Shown: positions 32,900-38,900 of the stretch, one piece after another
Position numbering within the stretch: position 1 is the stretch's first letter
Layout of the letters: every line of letters begins with the position of its first letter
NCBI RefSeq assembly: GCF_009914755.1
Contig: NC_060940.1
DNA: 64,000 nt
Source of the DNA: the human T2T-CHM13v2.0 reference genome, Homo sapiens
Reading direction: 5' to 3' (one strand)
Position numbers and translations under genes: made by a program
Notes under the pieces: generated by a model
Told to the model about the DNA's origin: nothing
Seen by the model: the letters and a program-made list of their open reading frames with translations, nothing else
Databases searched by the model: none

Positions 32900-33421
32900 T
32901 GCCTGCATCTAGGCTGGGGCTGCCCTCACTGCAGCCCTGGGGTGGGGGGTTCCTCCGCCTCCAGGGGCGCCCGCAGCGTCCTTACCTGGCTCCTCCCGCG
33001 TCCTGATTGACCTTTACTTAAAGACCAGCTCCAGCCGCTGATGGGTTTCGGCGGGTCCCCCAGGAGACCCTTCAGACGGCTAGAGCCGGGCGCGCTGCAG
33101 AGAGCCCCTAATTGGGGCAATGAATCATCGCGCGCGGCTCCGGCTGGACACAAAATAGATAGAGGAGCCGGCCGCTATTGTGCGCAGTTTGGGACGCGGG
33201 GGGAGGCGGCGGCGGGCGGGAGGGAGGCAGGCTTGGAGGAGGAGGGCGGGGGGAGGGAGCGCGCGGGGAGGGATTCCCCCGCCCGCCGCGCGCCCGCCCT
33301 CCGCCCCTCCCCGCCCCTCCCGCCCGCCGCCGCCCCGCCCCCTCCTCCCCAATTAAATGACCCCACGCCTTGGCAGGCGCCGGAGCTCGCACATGCGGCT
33401 GCCGCTCCAGCCGCCCGGGCC

Positions 33422-33455
<34 letters not shown>

Positions 33456-34510
33456 GTTCCGGGCGCGCTCGCCGCGGCGCCGCCTCGGCCCGCGCCGCCG
33501 CCGGGGGGTGCTCGGCAGGCCCGGGGGGGCGCCGCTGCGAGGGGCCGTGCGCCCGCGCCCGCGCCGGCCGCCCGCCGCCAAACTTTGCGGCGCGCACACA
33601 TGCTCCAAGTTGGGCGCGGCGGCGGCGGCCTGGGCGGGAGCTGAGGGCGGCCCGGGGCGCGCGGGGGCCCGGGCGGGCGGCGCGGCGCGGCCATGAGCGG
33701 GCGGCCGGCCCCGGTCTCCCGCAAGCAGCGGCTCATGGCAGCCGTGGGCGAGCGGGCTGCGGGCGGCGCGCCGCTCTCCTGCTTCATCTGCGGCGGCGGC
33801 ATCGGGCGCGGCAAGGAGCTGAAGCTGCAGGTGAAGCAGCCGGCGGCGGGCGCGGGGACCCCGGCGCAGCCCTTCTTCCCGTTCCTGCAGCAGCAGGAGC
33901 CGGCGCCCGGCGCGCGCGAGCTGTCCCCGGCCGACGGCTGCGTGTTGGTGTGCGCCGTGTGCCGCTGCTTCCTGGGCGAGCAGTGGGCCGCCTTCGAGCG
34001 CGCCCGCACGCCGGTGGACAAGCGCATGTACTGGCTCAAGCGGCCCCACCAGTGCGACGCGGGCGCAGGCGGCCGCCGTGGCGGCGCCGGGGCCCCCCGC
34101 GAGTGGAACGTCGCCTACGCGCTGGGCAGCGCCACCGGCGACGACGACGAGGACGACGGTGGCGGCCCCCGGCTGCGCGGGGCCGCGGAGGAGACGCGAG
34201 ACTCCGACCTGTCGGAGCTGTCGGACACCGACCCCCTTTCCGAGCCCGACCCGCCCGCGCGGGACGCCGCCAGCCCCCACCAGGACGGGGCCCCAGGGCC
34301 AGGGCCTCGCGGGGGGCGCGGCCAGGAGTGGAGGCCGGCTCCGGGACCCGCTCCGGGACAGGGCGCAGAGGCCTCGGCGCAGGGGCGCGCGGAGGAGGAG
34401 GGGCTCCCCGCGAAGGCCCACGCGGATGGGGAGCCCAAGGCCGGGGTTAGGCGCCGGCGGAAGGGGGTTGGGAGGCACTGGGTTCCCGAGGCCCGGGCCA
34501 GCGTCCTGAG
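32900..34510. promoter_or_regulatory. CpG island promoter and 5' UTR with multiple GC boxes
   Basis: Extreme GC and CpG density, repeated GGGCGG/CCGCCC boxes at 33200-33345, no interspersed repeats; elevated CpG continues through the exon. Confidence 0.9.
33422..33454 (+). repeat. (CCG)11 trinucleotide repeat in promoter/5' leader
   Basis: Eleven uninterrupted CCG units read directly. Confidence 0.95.
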
Positions 34511-35975
34511 GAGCATTCAGGATCCCTGGCAAGGCCCTCTTGTCCAAGAGGCCCCTGCAGACGGCATGAAAGGGCCTCCCTCTGGCAGAGCCACTAAGAC
34601 CCTGGAGAGCAGGCCGCTGGGGGAGACCCTACGGGGCTTCTGCACCTCCGAGGACAGTGACATCAACATCACCAGTGGGGAAGAGGACCACAAGGAACAG
34701 CCTTTCCCAGGCGTCTGCAACCCCAAAGAGAAGAACAGTGGCCGTGTCCCCCGGGCTCTCCAGGACAGCCGGGCGGCACCAGCAGAAGGCCTTTGCTGCT
34801 ACATCTGCGGGGCCCCGCTGTCCCCGGCCTCGCACCACCAGGTCCACGTGCAGAAGCAGGAGAAGCTGGCTCAGGCCCCGTTCTTCCCCTTCCTGTGGCT
34901 GCACAGCCCGCCCCCAGGGGCACAGCCCATCAGCGAGGGCGGCAGTACCTTGGTGTGCGCCAGCTGCTTCTCCTCCCTCACGCAGCAGTGGCAGAGCTTC
35001 GAGCTGGCCAACGTGCCAGTCCTGCAGCGACTCTATGTGGTGCCCCTGGACAGCCACGCCCCCGGCATGGCCTCTAAGGGCAGGAGGCTCCCGAGGGAAG
35101 AGGGCCTGCCCTCCGGGGCCCTGCGAGAGGCCTGCTACCTCTGTGGGGAGGACTGTACCCCGGATGCCCGGGCGGTCCCCTCCAGGATCCTCAACGGCAA
35201 CGCCAGGAGCGCCATGCATTTCCCCTTCCTCAGCCTCCTGCCCTGCCCGCCCAACGCCCAGGGCCCCAACAAGCGCTGTGAAGTCCGCAGCTGCCCCAAG
35301 TGCTTCAGCGTCCTGGAGGATGTCTGGGCCCTGTACCGGGCCTGCCAGAACGAGGAGCTCATCACCTCCGTGCAGGGCTTCCTGGGCAGGTACCACCAGG
35401 CCTTCTCCGCCTCCGACCCTGCCCTCTCCGAGCTGCCGGCGTCGGCCCAGGGCGGCCCCGTGTCCATCTGCTACATCTGTGGGGCTGAGCTGGGCCCCGG
35501 GAAGGAGTTCCAGCTCAACGTGAACCCCGCCAGCCGCTTGGGCGAGAAGGAGCCCTTCTTCCCCTTCCTCACCGTGTACCCGCCTGCCCCTCGTGCCAGG
35601 CCTGTGGACTCCACCGGCCTGGTGGCTACCTGTGTGCTCTGCTACCATGACCTGCTGGCCCAGTGGCTGCAGCATGAGGCCCGCAGCTCCCACCACGCTG
35701 TCAGCGCCTGGTCCCGGCAGTACCAGGTGGAGACGTTCGTGTGCTTCTTTTGTCAGCAGGAGAAGAAACGGTGTCTGGGGCTGAAGTCCGTGCGGGTGGC
35801 CCGGCTGCCCCTGTTCCTATACACCCTGCGAGCAAGCCACAGCCTGTTGGTGGATGACGGACAGCAGCTGATCATCGGTGCTTGCGTGGAGTGTGGGACC
35901 CTGGTGTGTGCGGGCCAAGGGCTCACCCGCCAAGGACCCATGAGCTGGAGCTCCCCGGTGGCAGCAGCGACGAAG
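33693..35975 (+). CDS. GSE1: First coding exon (761 codons) of a spliced gene, encoding five Cys4 putative Zn-binding repeats; probably the N-terminal extension of a long GSE1 (genetic suppressor element 1) isoform
   Basis: Longest ORF in the window. ATG context GCGGCCATGA (G at -3) with an in-frame upstream TGA at 33642-33644. Strong C/G third-position bias. Internal protein repeats conserved at amino-acid level (CFICG/CYICG/CYLCG/CYICG/CFFC; PFFPFL x3 plus HFPFL). Ends at a consensus donor AAG|GTAAGC, after which coding character is lost. Coding status is near certain; the gene name comes from my recollection of the locus and is less certain. Confidence 0.8.
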
Positions 35976-35981
35976 GTAAGC
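35973..35981 (+). other. 5' splice donor of exon 1 (AAG|GTAAGC), phase 0; intron 1 continues past the window end
   Basis: Near-perfect U1 consensus exactly at a codon boundary (2283 nt from the ATG); composition shifts toward T/A immediately after. Confidence 0.85.
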
Positions 35982-38900
35982 AGCAGTTTTCATCTCATCT
36001 TAGACGCTTCCTCCAAAATCCATTCAGGGAAGGGAGAGATGTTTTCTGTTCCTCAGAAAAACTCTGAAGGAGGAGTTTTCACTGGTTCTGTGCGGGGTGT
36101 TCCGGGGGAGGTACCCTCCCTGAGTCACTGGGCTGGTGCTTGGTGGGTACGTTGGCCTGGCTGACCTTGGAGGCATGGGGCAGGGGTCAGAGGAGTGGGG
36201 ATCAGGAGTGGTCTTAGGGAAGAATAGGGCACTGCTGAGAACAGCAGGCACGGGCCTGAACTTGGGTGTGTTTGCAGTGGGATCTATCAAACAGAGGAAG
36301 TTCGGGGCATGTCTGTCATCCGCCTGATAACATTGGTAATTAGTCCAGCCGTGCGGGTCACAGAGAGGTCTCCGTGCTCACCCGGTTTGAAACACATCAG
36401 AGGTGGAAGTTCCTCTCCGTTCTAGCTCCCGTGTGGCTTGGCTTTTCCAGAGTTTTCCACCTAAGTTCACACTGTTCTTTTGAGACCGTGCTTGCTTTAC
36501 GGCGGAGGGAAATAGGGTTCCAGACATGGGGGTGTGGAATTTGAGGGACAGTGGCCTAAACAGACTTTTCCCCCAGCGGGAAGAGAGTCTTTCCTCTCTG
36601 CAAGTCAGCTGTGCAGGAGGCAGACGGGAGGCCTGGCACTCTCCCTGTTTATAAGGCGCCTGCCTTCCTGCTGCCCGCCCGCGAGGAGCCAGACGGGGCT
36701 CAGTTAATTTGGGATCCGGCTTTGCAAGGGACCAAGCAGGAACTGCCCCCGGTGGGTCTGGGGAGGTAGATGTAGGCGTCTGTGAGTGGCAGTCACCAAC
36801 CCGGCCACCGGGGCATGGATGCTCATTTCTGCCAAAGACAGTCAGTGCGACTTGTTTTAATCAAACGCCTGTAGTGGCAGCTGCTGGCCATGTGTGGGCA
36901 GAGGGACGTGTGGATGGGAAAGGTGGCGCTGTCGTGTTCAGAAAGGGTCATTCCACCCTTTGAAAGCTTCCTGATCCTGCCTCCCACCTGCACGTGTGGG
37001 GCACGGAGGTGGACTATCTGGGGGACATGTTCACTTACAGTGGCTGCACCCGGGAAGTGCGCTCTGCCATGATTTGCCCACCTCTCCCCCGATACGCGGC
37101 CCCTGTCTTCATGCTCTACTCAGATTTCCTTTTCTACTGATGACAGCTTTGGACTTTCAAGCTGTCTTTGTGGCTTTGGTGGGATGGTCTCTCGTTTTAA
37201 TTGGATGAGCACGTCGTCTCCCGTCACAGATGCTGAAGCTCTCCTCTTCGGCATATAGCAGTGCAGCCCCTGGGAGTCAGAAGAGCTGCAGTTCCCAAAA
37301 GGGCTGAAACTGGGAGAAGAGAACAAGTTTTGGAGCAAGACTGACCCCAGTTCATTTGTTCCTTACCATGGCGCTGCGAGGCCTTCTCATCTCATTTTAT
37401 AGATGAGTCAACCAAGACTCAGATAAGTCAGACAACACTCAGTCAGTAGGTATCTGAGGCAGATTTCGAAATTCTGCCCTTTCTCTTGCTAAGTACCTGT
37501 GAGTTAGTTTCTTATCCTGGTGGAATGTCAGTTTCCTTGGTTGAGAAGTGGAAACATACCACTTGCTTTGTAGGGACATGGTGAGAGTTCAATGGATTGG
37601 GGGAAATGTAAGTTCCCCCAGAGGGTCAGATGCTTGACATATAGTGGGACCCTCGTGTCCTCCACCCTGGTGCATAGGAGCAAATTCTTCTTGGATGTGG
37701 GTTGGTTCTGTGTGCGAGGTGCTGGCTTGCAGGCTGGGTGCCAGTTTTATACCTGGCAGTGGTGTTTCAAGGGGCAGTCAGAACTCTCTGCAAATCCTCA
37801 AACACAGGGTTTTGTGCAAAGTATCCAAATTCTGGTGTATTTTCTCATGTGGATTTGCTCACGTGTCAGGAGTTGATGGGATGCTGCCCGTCGGCCTTGA
37901 CTGATAAGAACGCCAGGAAACAAGAAGCCGCCGTTTCCCAGGCAGCTGGGAAGGGGGAGTGGACAGTAGTCTGGTGTGGACGGGAACGCAGGCTGGTGTC
38001 TGCCCAGAAGGGGTCAGCATGGGTTTGGTGAGGTTTCATGTGGTATGGATGTGTGCTCTGTTCCCTAGAACAAGTTAGTGCATTCACTCCTTATCATGGC
38101 TCTTGAGGCCTTCTTATATCATTTTATAGACGAGTCAACCAAGACTCAGAGAAGTCAGACGACACAAAGCCAGTGGGTATCTGAGGCGGGTTTTGAACCT
38201 GCTTCTGCTCCCTACGCCCTCTTCCACCAGCTGCCTGGAGGAGGTGGAGCTTGAGTCAAGCCTCAGAAAAGAGGTAGGATTTGTTGGAATGAGGCAGGCA
38301 AACAGGCCCAGAAGCAGGGGTGACCTGTTCAGCCTCCGTGGGCGGGAGGTGCCTGTTGGGGATGAGAGGAAATAAGGTTGGAGTGAACTCCAGGCCTTGA
38401 AATCAGGAATAGGAGGTTGGATTTGAAGTTGAAGGCTCAGGGGAGCAATAACAATTTCTTGAAAGAAAGTGGAACGGACTGAGAAGAGATCTGCTCAGGG
38501 CCCAGAGGTGGCAGCAATCCAGGTGGGTGGTGAGGCCGCTGGGGCAGGTCTGCCTACAGAGAGGACAGCTCTGATGGGTCTCAGGCTCCCCTGGACGGGA
38601 GGGAAAGGAGAAGCCTCAGCTCTCAGCTCCCAGGGAAGCACGATTGACAGCCGGGAGAATGCCGGAAATGCAGCCTTCTGGTCTTCCGTCCTCCCTCCCC
38701 CTCCTTCCCATTCATTCAACAAATATTTATGGAGCGCCAGCTCTGAGCCAGGCGCGGTTCCAGATGCTGGGGATCTGGTGGCAAGCACAGAGCCTCCAGT
38801 GTCATGGGGGAGGGGGACACACATGAGGAGTGGAGGGAAGGAGCCACTTCCAGCAGAGCAAAGTGCCGAGAAGTAGCCGAGCAGATTAAACTTAGGACCC

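What the first reader, a model, noticed from the sequence alone, without database searches (positions are those of the whole stretch)
33780..35894. Five-copy 'CxxC...PFFPFL...CxxC-LxxQW' module: candidate unnamed zinc-binding domain family (Plexus-like, ZAD-like)
Seen: R1 C30/C33...C87/C90 (33780-34037), R2 C369/C372...C422/C425 (34797-35042), R3 C481/C484...C534/C537 (35133-~35345), R4 C593/C596...C647/C650 (35469-35729), degenerate R5 C684/C687...C731/C734 (35742-35894). Spacers are 53, 49, 49, 50 and 43 aa. Consensus is C[YF][IL]CG-x~25-PFFPFL-x3-4-P-x-P-x-A-x~11-CxxCxxxLxxQWxx[FH]E-x~9-12-RxY. This is not a C2H2, PHD, RING or LIM pattern. Inference: two widely spaced CxxC knuckles followed by an amphipathic helix resemble treble-clef domains such as the insect ZAD (zf-AD) dimerisation domain. 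I also recall that Drosophila Plexus, a nuclear repressor of wing-vein fate, carries Cys-rich repeats and a GSE-like region. If so, the long form would be the ancestral architecture.
Basis: partly seen in the sequence, partly recalled or inferred. Interest (0 to 1): 0.85.

Follow-up and report, generated by a model that had tools for sequence, protein, structure and literature searches.

The report
Uncurated zinc-module repeats in long GSE1
An alternative first coding exon of the human co-repressor gene GSE1 encodes five copies of a four-cysteine, probably zinc-binding module that has no curated family name and matches the cysteine-rich repeats of the fruit-fly wing-vein repressor Plexus.

Summary
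Window 33693-35975 (+) is a 761-codon open exon ending at a GT donor. It holds ten CxxC knuckles in five pairs, at the stated coordinates and spacings.

R1, R2 and R4 match each other at E 1e-10 to 1e-11 even in a whole-genome search. R3 is weaker. R5 is a truncated copy.

The module matches no Pfam family and no solved structure by sequence. It occurs nowhere else in the human genome. It is conserved in long GSE1 forms across vertebrates, with 5-7 copies in arthropod, mollusc, nemertean and priapulid orthologues. These include insect proteins named px/plexus; Drosophila px has six copies.

Repeat types are older than the protostome-deuterostome split, so the long form is ancestral. All 20 knuckle cysteines are invariant or at least 90% conserved in 55 orthologues.

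The ZAD idea gets no sequence support.

Best reading: one-zinc C4 interaction modules on the CoREST-complex subunit GSE1. Identity and homology are near certain, zinc binding is likely, and the partner is unknown.

The parts
33693..35975 (+). Coding part of the alternative first exon of GSE1 (761 codons, phase 0 at its end). It encodes the N-terminal extension of the long isoform.
   Evidence: ORF, translation, AAG|gtaagc donor. The hub's annotation lists exons 33680-35975 and 33749-35975 of non-selected GSE1 transcripts. Residues 360-700 are 46-90% identical to vertebrate 'genetic suppressor element 1' isoforms.
33765..34046 (+). Repeat R1 (aa 25-118): CFIC, FFPFL, CAVC, an LxxQW helix and RMYWLKR. 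It is the best conserved repeat type across Bilateria.
   Evidence: HMM i-E 1.1e-26. C30, C33 and C87 are invariant and C90 is at least 90% conserved in 55 orthologues. The R1 clade holds 13 of 13 first repeats with SH-like support 0.91. BLASTP to Drosophila px repeat 1 gives E 9e-15 and 38% identity.
34047..34781 (+). Acidic, Gly/Pro-rich linker (aa 119-363) of variable length.
   Evidence: pI 5.2, net charge -9, 15% Gly and 11% Pro. Few conserved columns in A1. R1-R2 distances differ widely among vertebrates.
34782..35051 (+). Repeat R2 (aa 364-453): CYIC, FFPFL, CASC and an LxxQW helix.
   Evidence: HMM i-E 1e-30. C422 and C425 are invariant; C369 and C372 are at least 90% conserved. The R2 clade includes protostome repeats, SH 0.93.
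35118..35408 (+). Repeat R3 (aa 476-572): CYLC, HFPFL and CPKC, with a divergent helix (VW in place of QW) and a longer tail.
   Evidence: HMM i-E 1.2e-19. C481, C484, C534 and C537 are invariant. It groups with the protostome 'M[HY]FP' repeat type; the clade is monophyletic, 14 of 14.
35454..35732 (+). Repeat R4 (aa 588-680): CYIC, FFPFL, CVLC and an LxxQW helix.
   Evidence: HMM i-E 1.1e-26. C593, C596, C647 and C650 are invariant. It lies next to, but not inside, the protostome penultimate-repeat group in the tree.
35733..35912 (+). Repeat R5 (aa 681-740): CFFC, LPLFL and CVEC. It is a truncated copy that keeps the four Cys but lacks the LxxQW helix and the RxY motif. It abuts R4 directly.
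   Evidence: An HMM of 162 invertebrate last repeats gives i-E 5.6e-5 over model positions 2-54, and finds R5 in 10 of 10 vertebrates. C684, C687, C731 and C734 are invariant in 55 orthologues. The clade with protostome last repeats has SH 0.87.
35976..35981 (+). Splice donor gtaagc.
   Evidence: In orthologues the protein continues for about 60 residues and then reaches the MSHEPKSPS... segment.

Best explanation
Window 33693-35975 is the alternative 5' coding exon of GSE1. It gives the long isoform a 761-residue N-terminal extension. The extension carries five copies of an 80-95-residue module. Each copy has a C-[YF]-x-C-G knuckle, a short strand, a PFFPFL hydrophobic motif, a Pro-rich loop and a second C-x-x-C that starts an amphipathic helix (L-x2-Q-W-x2-[YF]-E), and ends in R-x-Y.

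Shown here:
- The module is a real, ancient domain family without a Pfam or PDB-sequence relative.
- In the human genome it is confined to this exon.
- It is homologous to the cysteine-rich repeats of insect Plexus (px).
- The five vertebrate repeats are separate, positionally orthologous types that already existed in the bilaterian ancestor, so the long form is the ancestral GSE1/Px architecture.

Inferred:
- Each repeat binds one zinc through its four invariant cysteines (about 85%). It folds as one compact alpha/beta unit of treble-clef-like layout.
- The repeats sit as beads on disordered linkers. They act as partner-specific interaction surfaces, most likely for proteins (about 45-50%), that tether or regulate the LSD1-CoREST-HDAC1/2 complex of which GSE1 is a subunit.
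- This would explain why loss of px and loss of Lsd1 or CoREST both give ectopic wing veins in flies.
For: Exon and repeats.

Conservation: one search gave 42 hits, of which 41 carry PF12540, from mammals to sharks and teleosts, plus a spider. One search gave 32 hits (27 with PF12540) from chelicerates, a priapulid, molluscs, a nemertean and insects. An HMM built from human R1-R4 alone finds 5-7 repeats per invertebrate protein at i-E down to 1e-23.

Cysteines: in 55 aligned orthologues, 17 of the 20 knuckle cysteines are invariant and 3 are at least 90% conserved, while the other 12 Cys of the exon are not. The pattern CCCC is present in 1,174 of 1,177 non-redundant repeats.

Family size: a profile search of 1.84 billion representatives gave 608 proteins at E<=1e-3, 389 at <=1e-10 and 186 at <=1e-30.

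Plexus.

Ancestral repeat types.

Helix and compact fold: after the second knuckle, hydrophobic positions recur at a 3-4-3 spacing. Mean-field DCA on 1,177 repeats (Neff 638) gives long-range couplings that exceed column-shuffled controls: model positions 31-65, 32-68, 21-56, 20-58, 8-39 and 5-44, with excess 1.3-2.3 against a null maximum of 0.88. Seven of the top 25 pairs are shared between random halves, and the main pairs persist in an 894-repeat subset without the last-repeat type.

Function context: GSE1 forms a complex with HDAC1/CoREST (abstract of PMC10681733 in the listing). Intervein cells mutant for lsd1 or CoRest adopt vein fate (PMC7601384, passage). dCoREST RNAi gives vein phenotypes at 100% penetrance (PMC7145674, passage).
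Against: No structure could be predicted, so convergence of the four Cys and the fold are untested.

The DCA scores among the four Cys columns are artefacts of invariant columns: they are identical in shuffles (2.46-2.47). The remaining couplings may partly reflect repeat-subfamily signatures rather than contacts.

No tool here shows that the human long isoform is translated or in which tissue. The selected RefSeq transcript has no exon in the window.

No physical link between Px and CoREST was found. 'plexus', 'CG4444' and 'GSE1' are absent from the main text of the dCoREST interactome paper, and 'plexus', 'CG4444' and the FlyBase gene id are absent from its one held supplement.

R1 and R5 are basic (pI 9.1, net +5), so nucleic-acid binding is not excluded.

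Only the best 150 of the 608 profile hits were visible, so single-copy occurrences in other protein families cannot be ruled out.
Confidence: 0.7

Rival explanations
1. The repeats are diverged ZAD (zf-AD) domains and work as ZADs do, as homodimerisation modules.
For: The gross layout is the same: C-x2-C, about 45-55 residues, then C-x2-C followed by an amphipathic helix, with one presumed zinc. There is one sub-threshold zf-AD match, to nemertean repeat 2, profile positions 1-57 of 75, E 0.019.
Against: zf-AD matched 0 of 38 single repeats at E<=10 and only 1 of 18 full proteins, at 15.6 bits against a 28-bit cut-off. The zf-AD model finds 3 human loci over its cut-off but not this exon among 12 matches at E<=10. 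hhalign of the repeat profile against two human ZADs gave 1.1% probability over 21 columns, though that ZAD profile was thin. From general knowledge, ZADs occur once, ahead of C2H2 arrays. Here there are 5-7 tandem copies and no C2H2 finger.
Confidence: 0.12
2. The array is a nucleic-acid-binding domain that makes long GSE1/Px a direct DNA or RNA reader for the CoREST complex.
For: Tandem zinc modules are typical of DNA and RNA binders. R1 and R5 are basic (pI 9.1, net +5). Px is described as a nuclear matrix protein that represses vein genes (Matakatsu 1999 as quoted in PMC8864742 and PMC13322080).
Against: R2, R3 and R4 are near neutral (net -2, +1, -1). Linkers are long, acidic and variable rather than short and regular. 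The most conserved non-Cys positions are hydrophobic or aromatic (F38 and L70 invariant), not basic. No similarity to any DNA-binding zinc-finger family was found.
Confidence: 0.2
3. In humans the exon is a relic: transcribed from a CpG-island promoter but not making a functional long protein. The open frame would then be a by-product of high G+C.
For: G+C is 0.63-0.85 across the exon. Other frames are also open for 469, 348 and 224 aa. The selected RefSeq transcript skips the exon (hub annotation).
Against: All 20 knuckle Cys and the FFPFL/QW motifs are intact in the human sequence. Residues 360-700 are 90% identical to a whale and 85% to a mole-rat. There is no stop in 761 codons, and the start context MS..P.SRK.RLMAA is conserved to sharks. 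The donor site is intact.
Confidence: 0.05

Closest known systems
Cysteine-rich motifs of Drosophila Plexus (Px; Matakatsu et al. 1999, seen only as quoted in PMC13322080 and PMC8864742; the paper itself is not held)
   Same: They are homologous. Drosophila px proteins carry six copies of the same module and align to human R1, R2 and R4-R5 at BLASTP E 9e-15 to 1e-7. The array sits in the same N-terminal position, followed by the shared SFAAALR.LAKQA motif and a Glu/Arg/Lys-rich repeat region.
   Different: Vertebrates have five repeats and lack the ecdysozoan-specific second repeat type. Vertebrate R5 has lost its helix. Of 9 px-type proteins tested, 8 dipteran and 1 lepidopteran, none has a PF12540 match at E<=1, whereas bee and beetle 'plexus' do. 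Fly Px and the short canonical human GSE1 therefore share no curated domain.
ZAD / zf-AD (PF07776), a treble-clef C4 dimerisation domain of insect C2H2 proteins
   Same: Two CxxC pairs about 50 residues apart, with the second at the start of a long amphipathic helix; presumably one zinc.
   Different: No significant sequence or profile similarity. Tandem copies rather than one. No C2H2 array. A distinct PFFPFL and QW signature. The fold comparison could not be run.
MYM/FCS-type zinc fingers (for example zf-FLZ, PF04570). From general knowledge, MYM fingers of ZMYM2/3 are also found in CoREST complexes.
   Same: Repeated C2-C2 zinc modules in a co-repressor-complex protein. There are sub-threshold zf-FLZ matches around the second knuckle (3 of 38 repeats, best E 0.06; 2 of 18 and 2 of 11 proteins).
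   Different: All matches are below the 23.4-bit cut-off and cover only about 20 residues around one knuckle. The Cys-pair spacing here (43-53) is far longer than in FCS fingers (recalled).
GSE1 C-terminal domain DUF3736 (PF12540)
   Same: It lies in the same protein in 41 of 42 and 27 of 32 hits, and it defines the orthogroup.
   Different: It is a different, C-terminal region encoded outside the window. The repeat module itself is not covered by any Pfam model.

Membership tests
GSE1/Plexus orthogroup (N-terminal repeat array) | Significant sequence similarity of the exon product to proteins named GSE1 or px/plexus | tested here: met
   42 hits, E 1e-210 to 4e-44; 17 of 94 insect hits named px or plexus; human against D. 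takahashii px, E 9e-15.
GSE1/Plexus orthogroup (N-terminal repeat array) | Repeat array and PF12540 (DUF3736) in one polypeptide | tested here: met
   Met in orthologues: 13 of 18 proteins scanned, 41 of 42, 27 of 32. For the human protein the downstream exons lie outside the window, so the link rests on the hub's annotation of the exon as part of GSE1 transcripts.
ZAD (zf-AD, PF07776) | Match to the Pfam model above its 28-bit cut-off | tested here: not met
   0 of 38 repeats. 1 of 18 proteins, at 15.6 bits. The model does not hit this exon in the genome search.
ZAD (zf-AD, PF07776) | Profile-profile similarity to bona fide ZADs | tested here: not met
   hhalign probability 1.1% against an alignment of two human ZAD loci. 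That ZAD profile is very thin, so this is a weak test.
ZAD (zf-AD, PF07776) | C4 treble-clef fold with a C-terminal helix; homodimer | not testable with these tools
ZAD (zf-AD, PF07776) | Single N-terminal copy ahead of a C2H2 array (recalled architecture) | tested here: not met
   5-7 tandem copies and no C2H2 Pfam match.
Treble-clef zinc fingers (fold group) | A CxxC knuckle, strands, and a second ligand pair at the N-terminus of a helix | tested here: inconclusive
   The sequence pattern fits: a C-x-x-C-G knuckle, alternating hydrophobic strand positions, and a second CxxC followed by 3-4-3 hydrophobic periodicity. DCA couplings link the strand after knuckle 1 with the strand before knuckle 2, and link PFFPFL with the helix. 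There is no 3D model.
C4 zinc-binding domain (one Zn per repeat) | Four invariant metal ligands per repeat | tested here: met
   CCCC in 1,174 of 1,177 repeats. 17 of 20 human knuckle Cys are invariant and 3 are at least 90% conserved in 55 orthologues. Metal binding itself was not measured.
C2H2, PHD, RING, LIM, FCS/MYM zinc fingers | Pfam model match over the cut-off | tested here: not met
   No family at E<=1 on the exon product. Only scattered sub-threshold hits on single repeats. The PDB profile search gave a best E of 0.26, to C2H2 knuckles only.

The most novel reading that the evidence does not exclude
The module is a previously uncurated zinc-finger fold family. It would be the original targeting device of the GSE1/Plexus subunit of the LSD1-CoREST-HDAC co-repressor. 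Each of the five anciently diverged repeats would dock a different partner, such as a transcription factor or a chromatin feature. The long isoform, not the short 'canonical' one, would then be the true functional counterpart of fly Plexus, and px would act in wing-vein repression as a CoREST-complex subunit.
Probability: 0.3. Interest if true: 0.75.

Novelty: new member of a known kind. Interest (0 to 1): 0.55.

Why it matters
GSE1 is studied as a CoREST/LSD1/HDAC1 subunit in leukaemia and DNA-damage signalling. The two most GSE1-focused papers seen do not describe zinc modules in GSE1: PMC10681733 (passages) and PMC8830420 (listing only, 0 mentions of 'zinc finger').

The exon shows that the gene also encodes a form with five conserved, probably zinc-binding modules that nobody appears to have characterised.

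It also links GSE1 to plexus, a classical fly wing-vein gene. [quoted passage not shown] The likely reason is that dipteran Px has lost the recognisable DUF3736 domain, while the canonical human isoform lacks the repeats.

That link gives a testable mechanism for px through CoREST, and fly genetics for the human long isoform. The family would also merit a curated domain entry.

Caveat: orthology databases, which I could not query, may already pair px with GSE1. NCBI and UniProt names such as 'px' with PF12540, or 'Genetic suppressor element-like domain-containing protein', point that way.

Tried and rejected
No fold search was therefore possible.
- Genome search by alignment is not accepted. 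It was replaced by searches with R1 and R2. The nine weak non-GSE1 loci rescored at or below 7.4 bits with the repeat HMM and were rejected.
- DCA couplings among the four Cys columns were rejected as artefacts, because column-shuffled controls give the same scores.
- Literature. Matakatsu 1999 is not held. No paper links GSE1 with fly plexus: one search was swamped by GEO accessions; two searches found 1 and 4 papers holding the words, none on the topic by title. No paper links GSE1 with 'cysteine-rich': 4 papers, none on GSE1 architecture by title. Searches were badly framed (min_terms too low) and say nothing.
- The dCoREST interactome paper does not name plexus, CG4444 or GSE1 in its text, nor plexus, CG4444 or the FlyBase gene id in its one held supplement. 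Other supplements may exist that I could not see.
- The overlapping 469-aa ORF (33041-34450, +) and the antisense ORFs were rejected as G+C artefacts. They have Arg/Gly/Ala/Pro-rich composition and lie inside a conserved coding frame.
Full report
**1. What is in the sequence**

The + strand carries an open frame from an ATG at 33693 to a stop at 36164. The annotated exon end at 35975 falls on a codon boundary and is followed by gtaagc. The exon therefore contributes 761 residues. The region is a CpG-island-like block, with G+C of 0.75-0.85 at 33050-34550 and 0.63-0.69 further on. Long ORFs in other frames (469, 348 and 224 aa) therefore carry no weight.

Ten CxxC motifs were never reached in 20,000 shuffles of the same residues (mean 1.29, maximum 7).

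In a six-frame search of the whole 3.1 Gb genome, R1 finds R2 and R4 at E 8e-11 and 5e-10. R2 finds R4 and R1 at about 1e-11 to 1e-10, and R3 only at 0.056. Nothing outside this exon scores better than E 0.02. The nine best outside loci all fail against the repeat HMM, at 7.4 bits or less. In the human genome the module is thus confined to this exon, at BLAST/HMM sensitivity.

**2. No curated relative**

- Pfam gives no family at E<=1 for the 761 residues.
- Scanning 38 individual repeats from many phyla at E<=10 gives no family in more than 3 of 38 (DUF7685, Rad50 hook and zf-FLZ). The best E is 0.0032.
- The PDB sequence search finds nothing.
- The profile version reaches only E 0.26, on C2H2 knuckle fragments.

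**3. Relatives**

A search with residues 360-700 returned 42 proteins, 41 of them carrying PF12540 (DUF3736, the GSE1 domain). They are 'genetic suppressor element 1' isoforms from mammals (90-76% identity), birds, turtles, frogs, caecilians, coelacanth, sharks, rays and teleosts, plus a spider protein and an unnamed one.

A search from the spider protein gave 32 proteins, 27 with PF12540. They come from spiders, a scorpion, horseshoe crabs, ticks and mites, a priapulid, gastropods, a nemertean, insects and a springtail.

An HMM made only from human R1-R4 finds 5-7 repeats in these proteins. A profile of 38 repeats found 608 representative proteins at E<=1e-3 among 1.84 billion, 186 of them at <=1e-30. 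Of the 137 newly listed ones, 113 are shorter than 1,000 aa. Of those 113, 108 start with Met, and they end a median of 39 residues after the last repeat. That pattern is expected if gene callers translated only the large repeat exon; the human ORF likewise runs 62 codons past the donor. I cannot exclude stand-alone forms.

Only the best 150 hits are visible and the library has no names. The range outside Bilateria, and any single-copy occurrence in other families, therefore stay open.

**4. Plexus**

A search from the Anopheles protein gave 94 insect proteins. Their sources name 17 of them 'px', 'Plexus' or 'MAP7 domain-containing protein plexus', including Drosophila takahashii, D. virilis and D. 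madeirensis. D. takahashii and D. simulans proteins have six repeats. The human exon product aligns to the D. takahashii protein at E 9e-15 (R1 to repeat 1, 38% identity). The R4-R5 tandem aligns to its repeats 5-6 at 5e-13.

None of 8 dipteran and 1 lepidopteran px-type proteins has any PF12540 match at E<=1, whereas a bee 'plexus' and a Tribolium protein do. Fly Px (repeats, no recognisable DUF3736) and the short human GSE1 (DUF3736, no repeats) thus share no curated domain. This probably explains the published statement that plexus has no direct human homolog (PMC8864742, passages). In my searches no open-access paper links the two, and none mentions a cysteine-rich region of GSE1. Database names suggest that orthology pipelines may already know the link. 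I could not query them.

**5. Age and individuality of the repeats**

I built a FastTree phylogeny of 72 repeats from 13 species. These are chosen representatives, not all the proteins held. In this tree the repeats group by position, not by species.

| Group | Members | SH-like support |
|---|---|---|
| First repeats | 13 of 13 form one clade | 0.91 |
| Vertebrate R2 with a protostome type | monophyletic | 0.93 |
| Vertebrate R3 with the 'M[HY]FP' type | monophyletic | no value, because of the root position |
| Vertebrate R5 with protostome last repeats | monophyletic | 0.87 |
| Ecdysozoan-only second repeat | own clade | 0.95 |
| Vertebrate R4 | next to, not inside, the penultimate-repeat group | not applicable |

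R5 is recognised in 10 of 10 vertebrates by an HMM of 162 invertebrate last repeats, but only over model positions 2-54. It keeps the four cysteines and has lost the helix. At least five distinct repeat types therefore predate the protostome-deuterostome split, and the long form is the ancestral architecture. Keeping separate identities for that long suggests that the repeats are not interchangeable.

**6. What the module probably is**

In 55 aligned orthologues, 17 of the 20 knuckle cysteines are invariant and 3 are at least 90% conserved. The exon's other 12 cysteines are not. The four positions are all Cys in 1,174 of 1,177 non-redundant repeats. F of the FFPFL motif and L of the helix are also invariant in the 38-repeat alignment.

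Hydrophobic positions after the second knuckle follow a 3-4-3 spacing, as in an amphipathic helix. Before the FFPFL motif they alternate, as in a strand.

Mean-field DCA (1,177 repeats, Neff 638) gives three sets of couplings:
- between PFFPFL and the helix (model positions 31-65, 32-68, 34-68, 33-64);
- between the strand after knuckle 1 and the strand before knuckle 2 (21-56, 20-58, 21-58, 18-55);
- between the knuckle-1 flank and the Pro-rich loop (8-39, 5-44).

The excess over column shuffles is 1.0-2.3 against a null maximum of 0.88. Seven of the top 25 pairs recur in both random halves, and the main pairs persist after removing the last-repeat type.

There are two caveats. The Cys-Cys scores are artefacts of invariant columns, being identical in shuffles. 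Column shuffling also does not control for repeat-subfamily signatures.

Taken together this points to one compact alpha/beta unit per repeat, with a single C4 zinc site and a treble-clef-like order of elements. That is an inference. Structure prediction and complex prediction were off, so neither the fold nor dimerisation could be tested.

**7. ZAD**

The layout resembles ZAD, but every sequence test failed. The two-sequence ZAD profile used for hhalign was weak. The tandem, C2H2-free architecture also differs from ZAD proteins (recalled). I do not file the module as a ZAD. It may still work like one.

**8. Mechanism**

GSE1 is a subunit of the HDAC1/CoREST/LSD1 complex (abstract of PMC10681733). 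In flies, loss of Lsd1 or CoREST turns intervein cells into vein (PMC7601384, passage; PMC7145674, passage). Ectopic veins are also the px phenotype (PMC13322080, passages).

I therefore commit to this reading: the repeats are zinc-stabilised interaction modules on flexible, acidic linkers that connect the co-repressor complex to partners.

| Role of the repeats | My estimate |
|---|---|
| Protein partners | about 45-50% |
| Nucleic acid or nucleosome binding | about 20% (R1 and R5 are basic; R2-R4 are neutral) |
| Self-association, ZAD-style | about 12% |

No physical Px-CoREST evidence was found. Human expression and translation of the long form were not testable here.

**9. Verdict**

The module is a new family within a known kind of protein domain, the small C4 zinc-binding modules. 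It was noted descriptively in fly Px in 1999 but is uncurated, and as far as I could search it is unreported for human GSE1.

Noticed in passing
window 33041-34450 (+), 33353-34027 (-), 34629-35675 (-): Long ORFs (469, 224 and 348 aa) in other frames and on the opposite strand of the same exon. They are Arg/Gly/Ala/Pro-rich, as expected from 65-85% G+C. They are not evidence of genes.
   Followed up: partly
window 33050-34550: A CpG-island-like block (G+C 0.75-0.85) spans the start of the GSE1 long-form exon (33680) and the divergent lncRNA LOC105371382, whose first exon ends at 33197 on the minus strand. This looks like a bidirectional promoter.
   Followed up: no
window 33749 (second annotated transcript start) against the ATG at 33693: The second annotated exon start lies downstream of Met1 (33693) and Met15 (33735). 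The next in-frame Met is residue 112, so that transcript could only encode a form lacking R1. Several database isoforms of other species likewise start at or within R2, for example P0002, P0003, P0010 and P0012.
   Followed up: partly
window 35153-35862: A RefSeq 'enhancer' feature lies wholly inside the coding exon, over R3-R5.
   Followed up: no
L017 (own genome C16:95807323-95807556), L018 and L019 (C1, two copies): The only zf-AD (ZAD) matches over the cut-off in the human genome are one locus on chr16, about 4.6 Mb distal to this window, and a duplicated pair on chr1. I did not identify the genes.
   Followed up: partly
P0243 (Pseudolycoriella) and P0292 (Harmonia): Two insect models join the px-type repeat array to unrelated domains: Pre-SET plus chromo in one, RRM in the other. 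These are probably gene-model fusions with neighbours rather than real architectures.
   Followed up: no
orthologues downstream of the exon junction: About 60 residues after the junction, long forms reach an internal Met followed by SHEPKSPS. From memory, this is where the short canonical human protein starts. The motif SFAAALR.LAKQA, a GF[QR]PY motif and a Glu/Arg/Lys-rich repeat are shared from human-type GSE1 to Drosophila px.
   Followed up: partly
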